Origin: Candidatus Anstonellaceae archaeon
GTDB taxonomy: Archaea > Micrarchaeota > Micrarchaeia > Anstonellales > Anstonellaceae
Assembly: GCA_038887295.1 (NCBI GenBank)
Contig: JAWAKW010000001.1
Coordinates: forward strand, 238,115 to 302,114
Length of the DNA stretch: 64,000 nt
Reading direction: 5' to 3'
Positions 15,386 to 49,965 of this stretch are shown piece after piece; the stretch's first letter is position 1; every line of letters starts with the position of its first letter. Below the pieces are notes generated by a model, which was not told where the DNA came from, made no database searches, and saw nothing but the letters and a program-made list of their open reading frames with translations. The position numbers were made by a program, and so were the translations under genes.

Positions 15386-15934
15386 CTAAAGTGCTTTCAG
15401 GATGTCTGCTTTTGTTATTATCCCTATTACCTCACCTTTCTTTAGCACCAGCACAGCAGGGTAATGCTGAAGAAGGGGGGTAATAGAGGAAATTGGGGCA
15501 TCCGGGAGGACCGTTGGGAAAGCCTCATCCATCACGTCTGCAACCTTTGCCGAAGAGAGGTCTTGTCCTGATGAAAGCCTTTTGACTATCCCCTGCTCGC
15601 TTAGGCTTCCAATGATTTTTTTGCCATCGCTTACTGCAAGCTGCGAAATGTTCTTTTTCCTCATCTTTGAAATTGCCTGGTGAAGCGGCTGGCCAACATA
15701 CGCAATCTCCACCCCGCAGTGCATAATGTCCTTTGCTTTCTTTTCCTTTTGGCACTGCATCCCCTTTATCGCCTGGATTATCCTCAAGGCTTTAGAATAG
15801 GTTGGCTCTACCTTGCCTGCCTCTATTTTTGCAAGAAGGGACTGCGACACACCTGCCGCGCGGGCAAGCTGCTGCTGGGTAATCCCAAGCTTAAGCCTCA
15901 GCTCTTTTATCAGTCTCAAATCCTCCATCGGCAT
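15386..15934 (-). CDS. Transcriptional regulator with an XRE-type HTH plus tandem CBS domains
   Basis: N-terminal HTH (LGITQQQLARAAGVSQSLLAKIE) followed by a CBS pair. Confidence 0.7.
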   Translation of the reverse strand: MPMEDLRLIKELRLKLGITQQQLARAAGVSQSLLAKIEAGKVEPTYSKALRIIQAIKGMQCQKEKKAKDIMHCGVEIAYVGQPLHQAISKMRKKNISQLAVSDGKKIIGSLSEQGIVKRLSSGQDLSSAKVADVMDEAFPTVLPDAPISSITPLLQHYPAVLVLKKGEVIGIITKADILKAL

Positions 15935-15953: not shown

Positions 15954-16184
15954 TTATTTTATTGCATCCTCAGCCAGGGGCTTGTGGCTGCGAAGGTCTT
16001 TGTTCGCCTGCTCTATCCTGCTTACGTATTCTTCCGCCTTCTTTTTGTCATACAGCGTTGTACCTTGAATAAACGGGGCAGTCTTGCCTTCAATTACTGC
16101 CTTGCAGGCAAAATAGAGGTGCGTCTCTTGCGGCAGAGAAGTACCCCCGCATGGTTTGCTTTGCTGCGAAAGGACCCATCTCAT
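15954..16184 (-). CDS. Hypothetical small protein (76 aa)
   Basis: ORF only. Confidence 0.3.
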   Translation of the reverse strand: MRWVLSQQSKPCGGTSLPQETHLYFACKAVIEGKTAPFIQGTTLYDKKKAEEYVSRIEQANKDLRSHKPLAEDAIK

Positions 16185-16239
16185 CTTATCACCGCCGTTT
16201 GCTTTGTTTTGTGCTGGTATTTATATCTGATTGAGTCAA

Positions 16240-16257
16240 TTATTCATATATGAATAA
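16240..16257. promoter_or_regulatory. Perfect 18-bp palindrome TTATTCATATATGAATAA in a divergent promoter region
   Basis: Exact self-complementary 18-mer. The identical 18-mer recurs at 32481-32498. Confidence 0.5.
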
Positions 16258-16531
16258 AATAAAATGCAAAAATTCATTTCTGAATTTAAAGCAGAAGGTG
16301 CCAAGGGCGTGATTTATTCCCCTTGTTCAGGGTTTGAACACGCGACTTCCAGATTTCTCCGTCTGCCTGCAAACCAATTTTTGCAGGGAATGCCCATTTA
16401 TATCATCGCCTTTCGGCTCATCACTCATAAGTATCAGCTTATGAGTCTGGCACTCTAACCAGGCTGAGTTACCTTGGCACCACTATTTGTTGGAGGCAAA
16501 GGGATTAAAAGCAGTTCATCTTTTGTTTTAT

Positions 16532-16785
16532 GGAGCGGCGGGAGGACGGCTCACCGCGCGTTTGCGTGGAGGAAGTTCTGCCCACCGGAAAGAGTCCAAA
16601 TCGCTTAAGGCGATATCGGGAACAGAAACGCAAAACCGCCCCCTTCTATGAGAATGACGAAAGGAGAGAAGGAGTGTCGGGTTGAAACGGCCCGTGTTTG
16701 GCAATAAAATGCACGGTGCAAGGCCGTTTGGCCGCGCAAGTCAGATGCCGTCTAAAACAGAAGGCAGACTACCACCCGCCGCTCC
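16532..16785 (+). ncRNA. rnpB: Probable RNase P RNA
   Basis: 11-bp terminal helix: GGAGCGGCGGG at 16532-42 pairs with CCCGCCGCTCC at 16775-85. 5' GAGGAAGUUCUGCC resembles the P4 5' strand GAGGAAAGUCCGGGC. 3' ACAGAAGGCAGAC resembles ACAGAAnCCGGCUUA. GU(U)CUGCC/GGCAGAC forms a P4 helix with a bulged U. GC-rich and noncoding; the nadA ORF reads through it as an artefactual N-terminal extension. Confidence 0.5.
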
Positions 16786-16795
16786 GCGTGGAAAG

Positions 16796-17788
16796 ATGGA
16801 ATTCTCCTCTGAAGAAATAGAAAGCGAGGCAAAAAGACTTTATGGCAGCCTAGGCAAGCTTGGCTGGAGCTTGGACTCCTGCAGAGTCTGCGCCCCGCTC
16901 ACTCTGGAAATCAACAGGCTCAAAAAGGAAAAGAATGCAATAGTGCTGGCGCACTCCTACCAAACCCCAGACATAATCTACGGGGTGGCAGACTACACTG
17001 GTGATTCTTTTGGCCTTTCAATGCAGGCAAGCAAAATCCAAGCAGACATCATCGTGTTTGCAGGCGTGCGGTTCATGGCAGAAACCGCCAAGCTTCTCAA
17101 CCCCGAAAAGCGCGTGCTTTTGCCCTCTTTGGAGGCCGGCTGCTCCCTTGCAGATGGAATCAGCGCAAAGGATGTGCAGTTTTTGAAAGAGCAGCACCCA
17201 AACACGCCCGTAATTTGCTACATCAACACCTCTGCAGAAGTGAAGGCAGAATCTGATGTCTGCTGCACGAGTGCAAATGCAGAAAAAATCATCCTATCCT
17301 TTCCGCAAAAAAAGCTGATTTTTGTCCCTGACATGTACATGGCTCAAAACCTAGCAAGGCAGACCAAAAAAGAGCTAATAGGCTGGAGTGCAAAATGCGT
17401 TGTGCATCAGGATTTTGACCAAAGGAAAATCCAGGCAATCCGCCAAGCCTTCAGAGGCGTCAAAGTGCTTGCCCACTCAGAATGCTCCCCGCAGGTTGCG
17501 CTTGAAGCAGATTTGGTAGGCGGAACCTCTGATATGGAAAGGTTTGTGAAATCTTCCACTGCGCCCTCGTTCATGCTGATTACTGAATGCGGGCTTTCCG
17601 ATAGGCTTCGAGTGTTGTTTCCCCAAAAGCAGTTCATCGGCCTTTGCGCACTTTGTCCTTACATGAAGAAAAACTCCCTTTTTAACATCCTAGAAGCACT
17701 TTCAAAAGAGAAAAACGAAATAAAAATAGAAGAAAGCATAGCACAAAGGGCAAGGGGTGCGCTTGAAAAAATGTTGAGGCTTTCTTAG
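16796..17788 (+). CDS. nadA: Quinolinate synthase
   Basis: ILAHSYQ, DYTGDSFGLS, and Cys ligands for the 4Fe-4S cluster. The ATG at 16796 is the first start after the RNA; the true start may lie even further downstream. Confidence 0.85.
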   Translation: MEFSSEEIESEAKRLYGSLGKLGWSLDSCRVCAPLTLEINRLKKEKNAIVLAHSYQTPDIIYGVADYTGDSFGLSMQASKIQADIIVFAGVRFMAETAKLLNPEKRVLLPSLEAGCSLADGISAKDVQFLKEQHPNTPVICYINTSAEVKAESDVCCTSANAEKIILSFPQKKLIFVPDMYMAQNLARQTKKELIGWSAKCVVHQDFDQRKIQAIRQAFRGVKVLAHSECSPQVALEADLVGGTSDMERFVKSSTAPSFMLITECGLSDRLRVLFPQKQFIGLCALCPYMKKNSLFNILEALSKEKNEIKIEESIAQRARGALEKMLRLS

Positions 17789-18324: not shown

Positions 18325-18326
18325 CG

Positions 18327-18412
18327 GGCTTGTGGCGCAATGGTAGCGCGCCTGCATGGCATGGCTTGCCCATAATGCAGGAGGCTGGGGGTTCGAATCC
18401 CCCCGAGTCCAT
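18327..18412 (+). tRNA. tRNA-Ala (anticodon GGC) with a 14-nt intron at the canonical 37/38 position
   Basis: Acceptor GGGCUUG/CGAGUCC with the G3:U70 Ala identity pair. D-arm GCGC-AATGGTA-GCGC. Anticodon stem CCUGC/GCAGG with loop AU-GGC-A, intron at 18363-18376, then U. T-arm GGGGG-UUCGAAU-CCCCC. Discriminator A. CCA not encoded. Confidence 0.75.
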
Positions 18413-22409: not shown

Positions 22410-23107
22410 AAACCTTCCGGCCTCAAAAGAAAATCTATGCCCTCGTCATGCTGTGCAAGTTCAAGCAGGCTTTTGTCATTCATCTTGGAATAAACCCCAA
22501 ACGATAAGCAGAATTTAGCTGCGGTTTTTTTGCGTATTTCAAACCCTTCGCCATAATTTCGGTTCCTCACCAGTTTGCCTCCATGAAGCTCATAAAAGCA
22601 GGCCCCCTTCATCTGCGCAAACATGCTGTAGTCAGCCTCAAACTCATCCGAAACAAGATTTGCAAGCAAAAGCGGCTCCAAAGTCGGGTTGATTGTCACA
22701 TGGCCATAGCCTGGGGGGATCAGCACCTTTTCCCCCTTTTTGGCAGAAACCAAAATCGCATCCTGCACCCCCAATCCACTTACCTTCTGAAGAAGAAAAT
22801 GCGCCTTCCCTTCCAACACCTCGTACGCTTCTGCCCACGGTGTGCCAGATGGGGATTTGGGGTGCGTATGGCCAAAAGTCTTGTTGTACTCTCCGCCCAG
22901 GTCAAATGCAAGTATTTTTGTTATGTCATACCTTAGCCGCCCGAATTTTTTCACAGCACGGTACATGAAGTAAAGCGGCGTTTCTGGCTCTATATTAGCC
23001 TTCTGTGGATGCGCAAGAACAGGAAGCATTTGAGCAAAGGTTCGCACAGAAGGCGAAATTTTCCTTCCCTCAAATACCAATTCAGCCCCTTCAAACTCCA
23101 TCTTCAT
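22403..23107 (-). CDS. pgiA: Cupin-type glucose-6-phosphate isomerase (archaeal cPGI)
   Basis: Metal-binding cupin motif FGHTHPKSPSGTPWAEAYEVLEGKAHF...PPGYGHVTIN, as in Thermococcales-type PGI. Confidence 0.7.
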   Translation of the reverse strand: MKMEFEGAELVFEGRKISPSVRTFAQMLPVLAHPQKANIEPETPLYFMYRAVKKFGRLRYDITKILAFDLGGEYNKTFGHTHPKSPSGTPWAEAYEVLEGKAHFLLQKVSGLGVQDAILVSAKKGEKVLIPPGYGHVTINPTLEPLLLANLVSDEFEADYSMFAQMKGACFYELHGGKLVRNRNYGEGFEIRKKTAAKFCLSFGVYSKMNDKSLLELAQHDEGIDFLLRPEGFY

Positions 23108-31000: not shown

Positions 31001-31300
31001 TTACTTCTTTGGGAAATATTCGACCAGACCTTCTGCCAAGTCAGATACTGCCAAAAGCGCAGCGATAAACATTACAAACGGCTGAACTCCTTTGAGGCTA
31101 ATAAAGAAGATATTCACATTCAAATAAAGAGCCAGCACCAGCCCAACCAGTATGTACGAACCTATTACAAGGTGGACAGTGCCTACAAAGCGAGAGGCAG
31201 CCTCATGGCCTTTCATAAAACCACCAAACTGCTGTCTGCTTTTTAGGTTTATATTCCTGCCTCTTTCTTGAGCTTTTGCGCCTTGTCCGTTCTTTCCCAA
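31001..31300 (-). CDS. Small two-TM membrane protein (hypothetical)
   Basis: ORF with two hydrophobic helices. Overlaps the end of metK by about 50 nt, so the true start may be an internal Met. Confidence 0.3.
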
Positions 31301-32445
31301 GTGAATTCTTCCTCTTCCCTTCCAAAATGCCCATAAGCCGCAGTCTTTTTGTAAATCGGCCGCCTCAGCTTCAAGTCAGCTATTATATGGCCCACTTTGA
31401 GCCTGAAGTTTTCCTTGATGAGCTGAACAATTTTGTCATTTGGTATTTTGCCAGTCCCGAATGTTTCTACAAAAATTGATATTGGGTCGGGCACGCCAAT
31501 TACGTATGCAAGCTGGACTTCGCAGCGTTTTGCAATTCCTGCTGCAACCAGGTTTTTTGCAATGTACCTTGCCATATAGCATGCTGAGCGGTCTACCTTG
31601 GTTGGGTCCTTGCCGGAAAAGCAGCCGCCGCCATGGGAAGCCATGCCGCCGTACGTGTCCACAATTATCTTCCTTCCAGTAAGGCCAGTATCTGCCGCAG
31701 GTCCACCAAGCACAAACCTACCTGTGCCGTTCACAATTATTTTAGTGTCCTGCCGGAAGTATTCCCCTAGCACTGGTTCTACCACATGCTTTTGCAAATC
31801 CCTCTTTATCATCTGGCTGTCCACTGTTTTTCCCTGGTATGTTTCGTCGTGCTGCGCAGCAATGACTACCGTAGTTGCTCTGACAGGACGGTTGTCCTGG
31901 TCGTATTCCACGGTTACTTGGGTTTTTCCATCCGGCCTCAAATACGGCACAATTCCTTCCTTTCTTACTTTGGCAAGCTGAAATGAAAGCTGGTTTGCAA
32001 GGGTGATGGGAAGCGGCATAAGCTGTGGCGTTTCATCCACCGCATAGCCAAACATTATGCCCTGGTCGCCTGCCCCAAGCTGCTCCAAATTCTCCTCCTT
32101 TACTCCCCGAGCTATGTCTGGCGACTGGGTATGTATTGAAGACAGCACCCCTACACTTTTGCTGTCAAAATGGTACTCTGGTTTTGTGTAGCCTATCTGC
32201 TCCAGCACATTCCTTACTGTCCCGTCAATGTCGCAGTAGCCTTCAGTAGTTATCTCACCTGCAACCACCACAAGGCCTGTAGTTGCAAGTGCTTCCACTG
32301 CCACATGCGAACGAGGATCCTGCGCAATCAGGTCATCCAAGATAGCATCTGCTATCTGGTCGCAAACCTTGTCTGGATGGCCTTCAGTGACTGATTCAGA
32401 TGTGAATAAATAGTTTTTTTTGTCCATGAGCTCACCTGCTGTCAA
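31249..32445 (-). CDS. metK: S-adenosylmethionine synthetase, archaeal type
   Basis: Archaeal MAT family: [17 protein letters not shown]..., about 400 aa. Confidence 0.9.
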
Positions 32446-32480
32446 TTTTTCTTTCTATATTATATTCTCTTTTGCGCCAT

Positions 32481-32498
32481 TTATTCATATATGAATAA
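32481..32498. promoter_or_regulatory. Second copy of the 18-bp palindrome TTATTCATATATGAATAA, between metK and the PHP-like gene
   Basis: Identical 18-mer to 16240-16257. Lies 36 bp upstream of the metK start and 56 bp upstream of the start of 32554. Confidence 0.5.
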
Positions 32499-32553: not shown

Positions 32554-34221
32554 ATGGTTTTTATGGTGTATGTGCTGACCCCTTCAAAGAGAAATATCTC
32601 CGCAGCGCACAGCAGACTGGCGGAGGCCCTTGCCTCAAATGGTTTTTTTGCCTCAAAAGGCGTGCTTGCTGACAGGTATTATAAAAAAGACGATCCTTCT
32701 TCACAGACTTTCTTTGTCTATGGGCGATCATTTGAGCCTGATGGAAGCATAAACTCAAAATCTGCATTCAACATCTGCGTGCTTGACACAGGCAGAAGGC
32801 TGAGGGTTTGGTTTTCAAGCACAGAATTCTCACCTCAGGCAACTCAATTCGGATACCACCAATACATTCATTTTTTCTCCTTTTCAGCAGGCAACCTCTC
32901 CAAGTTCATTGCGCAAGTTGTAGATGAAGCAATAAAGGCTTCATGGTGCAAGCCAGAATCTTCCTACAGGATTTTCATCCATAACCATCTTGCAGAGCTT
33001 GGAGGGGTGAACCTGAACAACGCACTTCAAATGTATGATGACGGCCGCTCTTCTTCCGCAGCGCTGCTTTACAATTTGGTGCTTTCGCATGCTGATTTTG
33101 TGGCAATTACACATCACAATCACTTCCTGCTTGCGCCATGGAAGCGCTTTGAAGCGCAAGCAGCAAAATACGGGGTAAGCCTGATTGCAGGCTTTGAAGC
33201 AACCTTGCCTATTTTCCAATTTGAGCCATGGCTTGCAGGCACCCCTGAAGGCAAGGTGCACAATCCAAACGGTCCGCATATCGTGCTTCTTTTTGATAGC
33301 CCTGCTCTTGCTTCTGAATTTTGGGGCAGATACTTTTCTGGCAGGCCACAATACAAATATGCCCCAACTGCATCAGCAGGGGTTGAGCTTTTTGCAATCT
33401 ACGACGAAATAGACAAAAAATACAGTGGCAGAATTGCAAAGCTTATTGCCCACCCTGTTTGTGATGTTTCCTTACCTGATGTAGGGCTAGTAAATCGCGT
33501 AGCAAAAGGAGAAATTTCAGTCTCAGAAATGCTTCAGCTTATCAATCGCTCATCAGGAATTGCAGTATTCAACCTTTCTTTGAACGATAAACCCATCGAT
33601 TTCGGCCTGTATGCTGATCAAGTAAAGGAATGCTCGTATTTTTCAAAGGAAGAAAAGCAGCGCAGACTAAAAAATATCGCTGAAGCAGAAGAATACTTCA
33701 ACAGCATTGTCAAAGCAGCAGGGCTTGAAGGCCTCACACCAAACAATGTCAACTTTGCCTTATCTTTGCAGTTCAGCAAGACACTAATTCCCTTTGTTGA
33801 TACTGATGCACACAATTTTGACTGGGGGTATACTAATCTTGGCCCTTTCCATTGGATGATTCGCTCTATGGGACTTTTTGCAGCAGGCCACAATACGCTT
33901 TCATTTGATACTTTGCCTTCCGCCAAGCCCTCCCCGACAGAAGTAGTCCATTTCATCGAAAAGAAAGGTAAAGTGGAAGGATGCCGCTGGGCTTTCACTT
34001 TATTTTCCGAGATAAAAGATGGTCGCCTTCAAATAACTCTAAAAAGAAGGGAGTCTGCCTGGTCTCAAAAAATATTCAATCTGCTTGAAAAGGCATACTA
34101 TTATGTAAAGCAAGTGACCACACTGGGTTCTGATACTGCTCAGGCCATGGCAGATCAGGGCTCACTTCACGAGCCTTTAGTAATGCTACGCGGCTCAATA
34201 CCTGGCACCATACCAAAATAG
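32554..34221 (+). CDS. Large hypothetical protein with a PHP-like metal-dependent phosphoesterase signature in its N-terminal half
   Basis: FIHNHL...YDDG (motif I-like), VAITHHNH (motif II-like), GFEATLP (motif III-like), PHIVLLFD. The C-terminal roughly 250 aa could not be assigned. Confidence 0.4.
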   Translation: MVFMVYVLTPSKRNISAAHSRLAEALASNGFFASKGVLADRYYKKDDPSSQTFFVYGRSFEPDGSINSKSAFNICVLDTGRRLRVWFSSTEFSPQATQFGYHQYIHFFSFSAGNLSKFIAQVVDEAIKASWCKPESSYRIFIHNHLAELGGVNLNNALQMYDDGRSSSAALLYNLVLSHADFVAITHHNHFLLAPWKRFEAQAAKYGVSLIAGFEATLPIFQFEPWLAGTPEGKVHNPNGPHIVLLFDSPALASEFWGRYFSGRPQYKYAPTASAGVELFAIYDEIDKKYSGRIAKLIAHPVCDVSLPDVGLVNRVAKGEISVSEMLQLINRSSGIAVFNLSLNDKPIDFGLYADQVKECSYFSKEEKQRRLKNIAEAEEYFNSIVKAAGLEGLTPNNVNFALSLQFSKTLIPFVDTDAHNFDWGYTNLGPFHWMIRSMGLFAAGHNTLSFDTLPSAKPSPTEVVHFIEKKGKVEGCRWAFTLFSEIKDGRLQITLKRRESAWSQKIFNLLEKAYYYVKQVTTLGSDTAQAMADQGSLHEPLVMLRGSIPGTIPK

Positions 34222-49788: not shown

Positions 49789-49790
49789 AA

Positions 49791-49883
49791 TGCCACAGGC
49801 CGGATTTGAACCAGCAACACATCGGTTTCAGAACTCATTTTGAGTCTTCAGCCGATTGCTCTCCCAGGTTGAGCTACTGTGGC
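49791..49883 (-). tRNA. tRNA-Phe (anticodon GAA) with a 19-nt intron at 37/38
   Basis: Acceptor GCCACAG/CUGUGGC with discriminator A. D-arm GCUC-AACCUGGGA-GAGC. Anticodon stem AUCGG/CCGAU with loop CU-GAA-G, the intron, then A. T-arm GCUGG-UUCAAAU-CCGGC. Lies 2 nt from tRNA-Asn. Confidence 0.75.
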
Positions 49884-49965
49884 ACCGTTGCTTGTTTGTG
49901 CAGTTGTGATTATAAAAGATTAGCTTTTTCAAAGCGATTATATTGCTTGTGCAAGGAAGATTTGC

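What the first reader, a model, noticed from the sequence alone, without database searches (positions are those of the whole stretch)
16240..16257. Perfect 18-bp palindrome TTATTCATATATGAATAA recurring at two unrelated divergent promoters
The exact self-complementary 18-mer occurs at 16240-16257, between the divergent ORF 15954-16184 and the RNase P RNA/nadA region. It occurs again, identically, at 32481-32498, between divergent metK and the PHP-like gene 32554-34221. Chance recurrence of an 18-mer within 64 kb is negligible. A perfect palindrome centred on ATATAT in divergent promoter regions suggests a dimeric transcription-factor operator overlapping bidirectional TATA elements, so the genes may be co-regulated.
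Basis: seen in the sequence. Interest (0 to 1): 0.55.

Follow-up and report, generated by a model that had tools for sequence, protein, structure and literature searches.

The report
Operator of an archaeal methionine/SAM regulator
The repeated 18-bp palindrome is very probably the DNA docking site of a still uncharacterised archaeal transcription factor (a helix-turn-helix domain fused to a CBS sensor pair, encoded next to one copy) that controls its own operon and the S-adenosylmethionine synthetase gene. [quoted passage not shown]

Summary
TTATTCATATATGAATAA occurs exactly at 16240-16257 and 32481-32498, where chance predicts about 0.04 matches even with three mismatches allowed.

It is neither a dispersed repeat nor a TATA box. 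It is the perfect-consensus form of a family-wide operator, wTATTC-N6-GAATAw.

- Copy 1 lies upstream of a two-gene operon, orf76 plus an XRE-type HTH/2xCBS protein. Copy 2 lies upstream of metK, the SAM synthetase gene.
- Both copies end 13-14 nt upstream of a TATA box and 53-55 nt upstream of the ATG.
- Orthologous promoters keep the arms and the spacing while the central 6 bp drift.
- In a scan of species-representative genomes, 16 of 20 archaeal exact matches sit upstream of HTH-CBS, SAM synthetase (either enzyme type), a Cys/Met PLP enzyme or asd-hcyBio. None of the 92 bacterial matches does.
- Of 76 metagenomic loci chosen only for encoding an HTH-CBS homologue, 89% carry the motif just upstream, against 1.2% of control windows. 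49 of the full set of 80 loci have HcyBio, SAM synthetase or a Cys/Met PLP (O-acetylhomoserine sulfhydrylase-like) gene within the locus.
- Variant arms (TATGC/GCATA) occur only with a K-to-R change in the recognition helix.

SAM as the effector and the sign of control are inferred, not shown. No publication describing this regulator was found.

The parts
16240..16257 (.). Operator copy 1 (TTATTCATATATGAATAA), upstream of the orf76/HTH-CBS operon. It ends 13 nt from the TATA box and 55 nt from the ATG at 16184.
   Evidence: Exact match. The position and arms are conserved in orthologous loci: L114 exact, L115 CGATTCAAATATGAATAA, L116 TAATTCTTATCAGAATAA.
32481..32498 (.). Operator copy 2, upstream of metK. 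It ends 14 nt from the TATA box and 53 nt from the ATG at 32427.
   Evidence: Exact match. The arms are kept with constant 52-56 nt spacing to the metK ATG in L056, L198, L199 and L200.
15386..15934 (-). Candidate regulator: a 182-aa protein with an XRE-type HTH (PF01381) and two CBS domains (PF00571). The recognition helix is G-V-S-Q-S-L-L-A-K-I-E.
   Evidence: Pfam. AlphaFold model with pLDDT 91. 68 of 76 homologue loci carry the motif just upstream. Helix/operator covariation.
15954..16184 (-). orf76, a small lineage-specific ORF. It is the first gene of the operon and lies 19 nt upstream of the HTH-CBS gene.
   Evidence: Called as a gene in relatives; 59% identity in L114, weakly conserved in L115 and L116; no family match.
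31249..32427 (-). metK, a bacterial-type S-adenosylmethionine synthetase and the regulated target.
   Evidence: Pfam S-AdoMet_synt N, M and C domains. Operator footprint in five relatives.
16218..16226 (-). TATA box of the orf76/HTH-CBS promoter (ATATAAATA on the minus strand).
   Evidence: Conserved as ATATAAATA, CTATAAATA or CTATATAAA at the same distance from the operator in L114-L116. It lies in the -40..-21 zone where TATA-like hexamers peak in this window.
32455..32466 (-). TATA box of the metK promoter (AATATAATATAG on the minus strand).
   Evidence: A TATA-like element sits at the same distance from the operator in L056, L198, L199 and L200.
16270..16287 (.). Possible auxiliary site 1b (AAATTCATTTCTGAATTT), 30 bp centre-to-centre from copy 1.
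   Evidence: Core ATTCA-N4-TGAAT. Only half of it is kept in L114 and it is absent from L115 and L116. Status unresolved.
32392..32409 (.). Possible auxiliary site 2b (TGATTCAGATGTGAATAA), inside metK codons 7-12 (LFTSES) and 89 bp from copy 2.
   Evidence: Kept in L198 and L200 but not in L056, L199 or L201. Confounded by coding constraint; unresolved.

Best explanation
The 18-mer is the high-affinity operator of the XRE-HTH/CBS-pair transcription factor encoded at 15386-15934.

Binding (inferred from the motif and the protein model): a dimer places its two recognition helices on the 5-bp arms TATTC and GAATA. The arm centres are 11 bp apart, about one helical turn, so both arms lie on one face of the DNA. 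The central 6 bp are not read base-specifically.

Targets in this genome: one operator controls the regulator's own orf76/HTH-CBS operon and the other controls metK.

Family regulon: across archaea the same protein-operator pair is wired to homocysteine, methionine and SAM biosynthesis. The linked genes are asd, HcyBio/DUF39-CBS, a Cys/Met PLP enzyme, and archaeal-type MAT or bacterial-type MetK.

Effector and sign (inferred, not shown): the CBS pair senses an adenosyl metabolite of the pathway, most likely SAM. Ligand binding changes DNA affinity or oligomerisation and so closes a feedback loop on SAM synthesis. My preferred version is SAM-dependent repression, the same logic as MetJ. In that version the strong operator nucleates binding, and weaker neighbouring sites or oligomerisation interfere with TBP/TFB. 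The sign of control at these two promoters remains open.
For: Shown:
1. Two exact copies, far above chance.
2. Phylogenetic footprints at both promoters. The arms, the distance to the TATA box and the distance to the ATG are conserved while flanks and centre diverge.
3. An exact-match scan of 185,579 species-representative genomes found 112 loci, 20 of them archaeal. 16 of those 20 have the palindrome no more than about 120 nt upstream of a relevant gene. These are HTH-CBS (9 loci), archaeal MAT (10), bacterial-type MetK (1), a Cys/Met PLP enzyme (2) and asd-hcyBio (2), counting both genes where they are divergent. They include genomes of 57-60% G+C. None of the 92 bacterial loci shows this.
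4. Unbiased converse test on 80 metagenomic loci selected only for an HTH-CBS homologue. 68 of the 76 loci with enough upstream DNA carry TTATTC-N6-GAATAA (up to 2 arm mismatches) within 140 nt upstream, against 1.2% of 2227 control windows. The positions TATTC and GAATA are 85-100% conserved.
5. Neighbours of those 80 loci: HcyBio+CBS divergent and adjacent in 25, SAM synthetase in 18, a Cys/Met PLP (O-acetylhomoserine sulfhydrylase-like) gene in 6.
6. Recognition-helix residues S30, Q31 and S32 are invariant. The only loci with arms TATGC/GCATA (L159, L184, L197) are the only three with K36R in that helix.
7. A confident model shows an HTH, a long linker helix and a CBS pair. The CBS pair superposes on the MJ0100 CBS pair solved with SAM and MTA (3kpb) and on the CcpN CBS domains (3fv6).

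Inferred: SAM as effector, from the regulon content and from established knowledge that CBS pairs bind adenosyl ligands, including SAM in MJ0100 and in cystathionine beta-synthase.
Against: - No binding, ligand or expression data exist; everything is comparative.
- Operator position is ambiguous about the sign of control. At both window promoters, and at most biosynthetic targets, it lies 13-16 nt upstream of the TATA box. That is the position typical of archaeal activators. At most HTH-CBS genes, and at MAT in L010, L095 and L097, it overlaps the core promoter, which is the repressor position.
- A prospective test of the K36R covariation gave no clean confirmation. Of three further R-type homologues, L202 has only a hybrid TATTC-N6-GCATA site 230 nt upstream, plus GATGT-N6-ACATC at the canonical position. 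L205 has ATCTT-N6-AAGAT at the canonical position. L204 has neither TATGC/GCATA nor TATTC/GAATA arms within 400 nt upstream.
- The auxiliary sites 1b and 2b are poorly conserved.
- Foldseek matches CBS pairs with many different ligands (AMP, ADP, Ap4A, c-di-AMP, SAM), so the fold does not identify the effector.
- Many of the archaeal loci come from a few clades, so the number of independent lineages is about eight rather than twenty.
Confidence: 0.78

Rival explanations
1. Same protein and operator but positive control. The DNA-bound (ligand-free) regulator acts from an upstream activating position to recruit TBP/TFB to metK and to the Met genes, while repressing its own gene where the operator overlaps the core promoter. 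SAM binding releases it.
For: At both window promoters and at most targets the operator ends 13-16 nt upstream of the TATA box, too far to occlude TBP/TFB. A divergent regulator-target pair sharing one operator (autorepression plus target activation) is common in the metagenomic loci. From general knowledge, archaeal regulators bound upstream of BRE/TATA (Ptr2, LysM, TrmBL1 at some promoters) activate.
Against: In L010, L095 and L097 the same palindrome ends 25 nt from the MAT start codon, so a bound protein should repress MAT there. In this window it would also imply positive autoregulation, opposite to most of the family. XRE-type HTH proteins are mostly repressors (general knowledge).
Confidence: 0.35
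2. The palindrome is bound by a different transcription factor, and the HTH-CBS gene is merely one of that factor's targets.
For: The identical 18-mer is used in high-G+C proteobacteria directly upstream of MarR-family genes, so the sequence is not unique to one protein family. Co-localisation does not demonstrate binding.
Against: 89% of independently sampled HTH-CBS genes carry the motif at a fixed distance (operator end about 22-24 nt from the ATG). Arm variants co-vary with the recognition helix. None of the archaeal loci was seen to carry another conserved regulator gene next to the site.
Confidence: 0.07
3. The effector is not SAM but another metabolite, such as methionine, SAH, MTA, homocysteine or an adenine nucleotide reporting energy state (as for CcpN).
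For: The CBS fold matches structures with AMP, ADP, Ap4A and c-di-AMP as well as SAM/MTA. The regulon contains early pathway genes (asd, hcyBio), for which methionine or homocysteine would also be logical signals.
Against: SAM synthetase is the most frequent and most widely distributed target, and it remains linked to the operator whichever of the two enzyme types is present. This argues for a signal at or after SAM. The neighbouring HcyBio enzymes carry their own CBS pairs, and the homologous pair in MJ0100 was solved with SAM and MTA (3kpb).
Confidence: 0.35
4. The palindrome is a core promoter element: a symmetric TATA box that drives bidirectional transcription.
For: The centre is ATATAT, and genes diverge from copy 2. 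In Methanomassiliicoccaceae the palindrome sits where the TATA box of the HTH-CBS gene should be.
Against: In orthologues the central 6 bp are variable and often not TATA-like (CAAAAA, TCCTAA, CAAACG), while the flanking arms are invariant. Separate conserved TATA boxes lie 13-16 nt downstream. In this window TATA-like hexamers peak at -40..-21 from the ATG, whereas the palindrome centre is at -62/-64.
Confidence: 0.03
5. It is a dispersed repeat or a mobile-element terminus.
For: An identical 18-mer occurs twice in 64 kb.
Against: There are only two copies, sharing 20 bp with unrelated flanks. No transposase lies nearby. The position is conserved upstream of orthologous housekeeping genes across phyla.
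Confidence: 0.01

Closest known systems
CcpN (Bacillus subtilis repressor of gapB/pckA): N-terminal HTH plus two CBS domains
   Same: The only characterised regulator type I know with a DNA-binding HTH fused to a CBS sensor pair. The CBS pair of the model superposes on the CcpN CBS structure 3fv6 (E 6.9e-9, 25% identity). It works as a one-component, ligand-modulated DNA binder.
   Different: CcpN is bacterial. Its regulon is gluconeogenesis and its effectors are ATP/ADP (from memory, not tested here). No NCBIfam or Pfam family joins the two proteins. Its operator sequence is unrelated.
MetJ (Escherichia coli) and SahR/SamR (Proteobacteria): SAM- or SAH-responsive regulators of met genes and metK
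   Same: The same regulatory logic is proposed: a pathway end-product (SAM or SAH) sensed by a DNA-binding protein that controls methionine biosynthesis and SAM synthetase through palindromic sites, often with autoregulation (PMC4239095).
   Different: The folds are unrelated: MetJ is ribbon-helix-helix, and SahR/SamR are ArsR-type, described in PMC4239095 only for Proteobacteria. The operators differ: the metbox AGACGTCT for MetJ (recalled from memory) and 20-24 bp ATC-N10-GAT palindromes for SahR/SamR. The sensor here is a CBS pair.
MJ0100 / MA1821-type homocysteine biosynthesis enzyme (HcyBio, PF01837, with a C-terminal CBS pair)
   Same: It belongs to the same pathway and carries the same kind of sensor module. 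Its CBS pair was solved with SAM and MTA (3kpb; Foldseek E 5.7e-9 to the model). It is the divergent neighbour of the regulator in 25 of 80 loci.
   Different: It is an enzyme regulated allosterically, not a DNA-binding protein.
HhpR (Pyrococcus yayanosii), a four-CBS-domain transcriptional activator
   Same: An archaeal precedent for a CBS protein acting in transcription (PMC11705074). That paper notes HTH+CBS fusions in Thermococcaceae without assigning a function.
   Different: HhpR has no HTH domain, responds to hydrostatic pressure and has an unrelated regulon. The NCBIfam HhpR match is weak (21 bits against a cut-off of 520).
SAM riboswitches (S-box and related) upstream of bacterial metK and met genes
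   Same: They perform the same physiological job: SAM feedback on metK and methionine genes.
   Different: They are RNA-based. No Rfam family other than tRNA reached its gathering score in the window, and the relaxed scan of 16100-17000 returned only RNase P RNA. Here the conserved element is a DNA palindrome upstream of the TATA box, outside the transcript.

Membership tests
Transcription-factor operator (dimeric HTH type) | Inverted repeat with half-sites about one helical turn apart | tested here: met
   5-bp arms TATTC/GAATA separated by 6 bp, so the arm centres are 11 bp apart. The repeat is perfect in both window copies.
Transcription-factor operator (dimeric HTH type) | Conserved in sequence and position upstream of orthologous genes while the flanks diverge | tested here: met
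   orf76 promoter in L114, L115 and L116; metK promoter in L056, L198, L199 and L200, with spacing of 52-57 nt to the ATG.
Transcription-factor operator (dimeric HTH type) | Association with the regulator gene (autoregulation) in an unbiased sample | tested here: met
   68 of 76 HTH-CBS loci carry the motif within 140 nt upstream, against 1.2% of control windows.
Transcription-factor operator (dimeric HTH type) | Direct, sequence-specific binding by the protein | not testable with these tools
   Needs EMSA, footprinting or DAP-seq. The only indirect support is the helix K36R / arm TATGC covariation, which did not generalise to three further R-type homologues.
XRE-family HTH + CBS-pair one-component regulators | N-terminal HTH_3 (PF01381) domain | tested here: met
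   E 3.8e-13, residues 9-55. The model shows helices at 8-16, 20-27, 31-38 and 46-63.
XRE-family HTH + CBS-pair one-component regulators | Two CBS domains forming a Bateman module | tested here: met
   PF00571 matched twice, E 1.8e-18. Foldseek matches to CBS pairs have target-normalised TM-scores of 0.72-0.81.
SAM-sensing proteins | Binds S-adenosylmethionine | not testable with these tools
   Only inferred, from the regulon content and from similarity to the MJ0100 CBS pair solved with SAM/MTA (3kpb). CBS pairs with other ligands match equally well.
MetJ family | Ribbon-helix-helix fold and tandem metbox operators | tested here: not met
   The Pfam and NCBIfam hits are HTH_3 and CBS only. 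The operator is a single 5-N6-5 palindrome.
CcpN family | Sequence membership, and a gapB/pckA regulon | tested here: inconclusive
   The only link is a structural match of the CBS pair to 3fv6 (25% identity). The CcpN HTH was not compared. The regulon here is Met/SAM, not gluconeogenesis.
Archaeal TATA box / BRE core promoter element | AT-rich octamer conserved about 26 nt upstream of the TSS | tested here: not met
   The central 6 bp vary freely among orthologues. A separate TATA box lies 13-16 nt downstream. The palindrome centre is at -62/-64 from the ATG, whereas TATA-like hexamers in this window peak at -40..-21.
Dispersed repeat / mobile-element end | Many copies with extended flanking homology, at non-promoter sites | tested here: not met
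   Two copies share 20 bp only. The one extra arm-match at 22476 lies inside an ORF and is compatible with chance.

The most novel reading that the evidence does not exclude
The palindrome identifies the operator and regulon of a previously uncharacterised, pan-archaeal master regulator of sulfur amino-acid and SAM homeostasis. The regulator is an XRE-HTH protein that senses SAM through a CBS pair. It would be the archaeal functional counterpart of MetJ, SahR and the SAM riboswitches. It has kept the same operator through a swap between the two types of SAM synthetase, and across Micrarchaeota (DPANN), Methanomassiliicoccales and other, unclassified archaeal metagenomic lineages.
Probability: 0.5. 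Interest if true: 0.78.

Novelty: new variant of a known kind. Interest (0 to 1): 0.64.

Why it matters
To my knowledge, no mechanism has been described by which archaea regulate methionine and SAM synthesis. No archaeal SAM riboswitch or homologue of MetJ or SahR is known to me (general knowledge). A 2025 paper still states that the functions of archaeal CBS proteins are unknown (PMC11705074).

This finding supplies three things needed for a direct test:
- a concrete protein family;
- a precise DNA motif (wTATTC-N6-GAATAw);
- a predicted regulon (asd, hcyBio, a Cys/Met PLP enzyme, MAT/metK and the regulator itself).

With these, one EMSA/ITC experiment and one deletion strain would answer the question.

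It would also give a sequence rule for annotating Met/SAM regulons in uncultured archaea. It is a clear case of regulatory wiring that survived replacement of the target enzyme by the other SAM synthetase type. It may also offer a small ligand-responsive DNA-binding module for archaeal synthetic biology.

Tried and rejected
- **Literature.** Ten full-text searches found no description of this regulator. They covered HTH+CBS with archaea and SAM synthetase, COG2524, 'HTH-CBS', the motif string itself, homocysteine biosynthesis with COG1900, SAM-responsive/SamR, and others. Four papers were read. Subscription-only literature is not covered.
- **PDB and NCBIfam.** There is no full-length solved homologue and no specific named family.
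- **Prospective covariation test.** K36R did not predict TATGC arms in three further homologues. Two of them carry other 5-N6-5 palindromes at the canonical position, so K36R is not sufficient.
- **Auxiliary sites 1b (16270-16287) and 2b (32392-32409).** I considered them as cooperative operators. Conservation is patchy, and 2b is confounded by the LFTSES codons. Half-site density near the operators is not clearly above background.
- **Third arm-match at 22476.** It lies inside a cupin-like ORF and was rejected as chance.
- **Bacterial exact matches.** None is next to Met/SAM or HTH-CBS genes. The two high-G+C loci whose ORFs were inspected (L099, L049) have the palindrome directly upstream of a MarR-family gene, and other high-G+C loci share their flanks.
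- **The 555-aa ORF and orf76.** Neither has a Pfam or NCBIfam match. The 'PHP-like' label could not be verified.
- **Not used.** I did not run the third protein-database search, the representative-library search or a second structure prediction. They would not have changed the verdict.

Full report
**Observation.** TTATTCATATATGAATAA is present exactly at 16240-16257 and 32481-32498. Dinucleotide shuffles give 0.04 matches even with three mismatches allowed. The two copies share only 20 bp, and their flanks are unrelated. The core ATTCA-N4-TGAAT occurs four times in the window, always at these two loci. The arms-only pattern TTATTC-N6-GAATAA with up to 1 mismatch gives four sites against 0.145 expected. 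One of these, at 22476, lies inside an ORF and is probably chance.

**Local anatomy, site 1.** The window is archaeal. It contains an archaeal RNase P RNA at 16534-16783 (83.2 bits, just under the gathering score of 84), and genes for an LSm protein, aEF-1beta and Rad50. An identical copy of the regulator protein sits on a 441,876-bp contig named Candidatus Anstonellaceae, in the class Micrarchaeia.

Copy 1 is not in a divergent promoter with RNase P. An unannotated tRNA-Met(CAT) gene with two introns occupies 16478..16299 on the minus strand. ARAGORN calls its spliced form tRNA-Met. Reading the minus strand, the order is:
- tRNA-Met;
- the palindrome;
- 13 nt;
- the TATA box ATATAAATA (16226..16218);
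- the ATG of a 76-aa ORF (16184);
- 19 nt after that ORF, a 182-aa protein with an XRE-type HTH (PF01381) and two CBS domains;
- then rpiA and a DUF359 gene.

**Local anatomy, site 2.** Copy 2 lies between metK and a 555-aa ORF. metK is of the bacterial type and its ATG is at 32427. The 555-aa ORF has no family match. On the metK side the palindrome is followed by 14 nt, a TATA box (AATATAATATAG) and the ATG, which lies 53 nt after the palindrome. In this window TATA-like hexamers peak at -40..-21 from start codons. The palindrome centre, at -62/-64, is therefore upstream of both core promoters.

**Footprints in relatives.** Three genomes share the gene order nadA / tRNA-Met / small ORF / HTH-CBS / rpiA, with 89%, 71% and 64% regulator identity. 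Their sites read TTATTCATATATGAATAA, CGATTCAAATATGAATAA and TAATTCTTATCAGAATAA. Each lies 13-14 nt from a TATA box and 54-57 nt from the ATG.

Upstream of metK the sites are:
- ATATTCATATATGAATAA (93% MetK identity);
- the exact 18-mer (82%);
- TTATTCTTATTGGAATAA (Anstonella stagnisolia, 74%);
- ATATTCTTAAAGGAATAA (74%).

All are 52-56 nt from the ATG. The arms and the spacing are conserved while the central six bases and the flanks are not. The 555-aa ORF is absent in two of these genomes. Where it is present, its conserved TATA element lies 27-57 nt from the palindrome. The operator therefore belongs to metK.

**Exact-match scan of species-representative genomes.** The scan found 112 loci, 20 of them archaeal: 8 Micrarchaeota, 9 Methanomassiliicoccales, and one each from Woesearchaeota, Promethearchaeota and Thermoproteota.

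- In six Methanomassiliicoccales genomes (five Methanomassiliicoccaceae plus L103; 57-60% G+C) the palindrome lies between a divergent HTH-CBS gene and an archaeal-type methionine adenosyltransferase.
- In four Micrarchaeota it precedes archaeal MAT.
- In two Micrarchaeota it lies between HTH-CBS and a Cys/Met PLP enzyme.
- In two Methanomethylophilaceae it precedes an asd-hcyBio operon.
- In two close relatives of the window organism it reproduces the window sites.

None of the 92 bacterial loci has any of these genes nearby. The two high-G+C proteobacterial loci whose ORFs I inspected (L099, L049) have the palindrome directly upstream of a MarR-family gene, and other high-G+C loci share their flanks. 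This is an unrelated use of the same sequence.

**Unbiased converse test.** I fetched 80 metagenomic loci selected only because they encode a homologue of the HTH-CBS protein (41-55% identity).

- Of the 76 loci with at least 130 bp upstream, 68 (89%) carry TTATTC-N6-GAATAA with at most two arm mismatches within 140 nt upstream. Only 1.2% of 2227 control windows do.
- Across 55 distinct sites the positions T-A-T-T-C and G-A-A-T-A are 85-100% conserved, and the centre is free.
- The site usually ends about 22-24 nt from the regulator's ATG.
- Of the 80 loci, 25 have a divergent, adjacent HcyBio (PF01837) plus CBS gene. This is the MJ0100/MA1821 type of homocysteine biosynthesis enzyme.
- 18 have a SAM synthetase, nine of each type.
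- 6 have a Cys/Met PLP (O-acetylhomoserine sulfhydrylase-like) gene.

**The protein.** S30, Q31 and S32 in the third helix are invariant across the family. AlphaFold gives a confident model (pLDDT 91) with an HTH, a long linker helix and a CBS pair. Foldseek finds only CBS pairs, including MJ0100 with SAM/MTA (3kpb) and the CcpN CBS domains (3fv6). No full-length homologue has been solved.

The only three loci whose operators have arms TATGC/GCATA (four perfect sites) are the only three of 76 with Lys36 replaced by Arg in the recognition helix. A prospective test on three more R-type homologues did not reproduce TATGC arms. Two of them carry other 5-N6-5 palindromes at the canonical position. 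The operator therefore co-evolves with the protein, but K36R alone does not set specificity.

**Mechanism.**

Shown:
- a conserved 5-N6-5 palindrome;
- its tight association with the HTH-CBS gene;
- its association with homocysteine, methionine and SAM genes.

Inferred:
- A dimer reads the two arms on one face of the helix.
- The CBS pair senses an adenosyl metabolite, most likely SAM.
- Ligand binding modulates DNA binding, giving feedback on SAM synthesis.

The sign of control is unresolved.
- At most regulator genes, and at MAT in one Micrarchaeota clade, the operator overlaps the core promoter. This is repression geometry.
- At the two window promoters and at most biosynthetic targets, it sits 13-16 nt upstream of the TATA box. 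This is activator-like geometry.

I prefer SAM-dependent repression, because it gives one consistent sign across all promoters and matches the logic of MetJ. I put it at only about 55% against 35% for ligand-released activation.

**Comparison and novelty.** Functionally the closest systems are MetJ, SahR/SamR and the SAM riboswitches. Architecturally the closest is CcpN. It is a member of none of these families. Ten full-text searches and four papers gave no description of this regulator. A 2025 paper states that the functions of archaeal CBS proteins are unknown and merely lists HTH+CBS fusions.

Caveats:
- Subscription-only literature was not searched.
- The evidence is entirely comparative.
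- Many loci come from a few clades.
- The regulon in the source genome outside this window is unknown.

Noticed in passing
window 16299-16478 (minus strand): Unannotated tRNA-Met(CAT) with two introns. One is 85 nt, at the canonical 37/38 position (16438-16354), and contains GTGATGA and GATGATA C-box-like motifs, so it may be a C/D-box sRNA. The other is 20 nt, in the T-loop (16332-16313). ARAGORN and Rfam both missed the gene, but ARAGORN calls the spliced 75-mer tRNA-Met. It is conserved in L114 and L115, and at least its 3' part in L116.
   Followed up: partly
window 16534-16783 (+): Archaeal RNase P RNA scoring 83.2 bits, just below Rfam's gathering score of 84, so it is invisible at the default threshold. 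It ends 15 nt before the likely nadA start at 16799.
   Followed up: partly
window 18326-18411 (+) and 49790-49884 (-): ARAGORN reports an 86-nt tRNA of undetermined identity with a four-base anticodon call (ggca), which scores 59 bits in Rfam. It also reports a 95-nt tRNA-Phe. Both are longer than normal, so they probably also carry introns.
   Followed up: no
L049, L100, L042, L096, L090, L035; L099, L058, L044, L067 (high-G+C proteobacterial loci): The identical 18-mer occurs in 56-67% G+C bacteria next to TTGACA-like boxes. In the two loci whose ORFs were inspected (L099, L049) it lies directly upstream of a MarR-family gene. This looks like an unrelated autoregulatory operator that happens to have the same sequence.
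   Followed up: partly
window 32554-34221 (+); L056, L198, L200: A 550-555-aa ORF with no Pfam or NCBIfam match even at E<=10. It is conserved (71% identity in L056) and always divergent from metK in the Anstonellaceae group. It has its own conserved promoter block, TTTTTAAAGTGG..CTGAAA(A)TA.
   Followed up: partly
window 16227-16239; L009, L020, L027, L052, L111, L103: The spacer between the operator and the TATA box, TTGA(C/G)TCAATCA, is almost identical in the window's site 1 and in Methanomassiliicoccales MAT promoters, although the phyla are distant. It is absent at site 2. It could be an extended operator, a BRE variant or a second protein's site.
   Followed up: no
window 31249-32427, compared with L010, L085, L095, L097: Some Micrarchaeota use a bacterial-type MetK and others the archaeal-type MAT, and both are preceded by the same operator. 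The target enzyme was replaced while the regulatory site was retained.
   Followed up: partly
L020 4675-5239: The HTH-CBS gene of this Methanomassiliicoccaceae MAG is split into two overlapping ORFs. This is either a frameshift (pseudogene) or an assembly error.
   Followed up: no
L202 2456-2473; L205 345-362: Divergent R-type HTH-CBS homologues (L202 from Woesearchaeota, L205 an unclassified read-archive contig) carry different perfect palindromes, AGATGT-N6-ACATCT and GATCTT-N6-AAGATC. These have the same 5-N6-5 geometry and lie 21-28 nt from the ATG. The L202 regulator gene has no Met/SAM gene within the fetched locus and a DNA methyltransferase gene downstream. These may be subfamilies with changed specificity.
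   Followed up: partly
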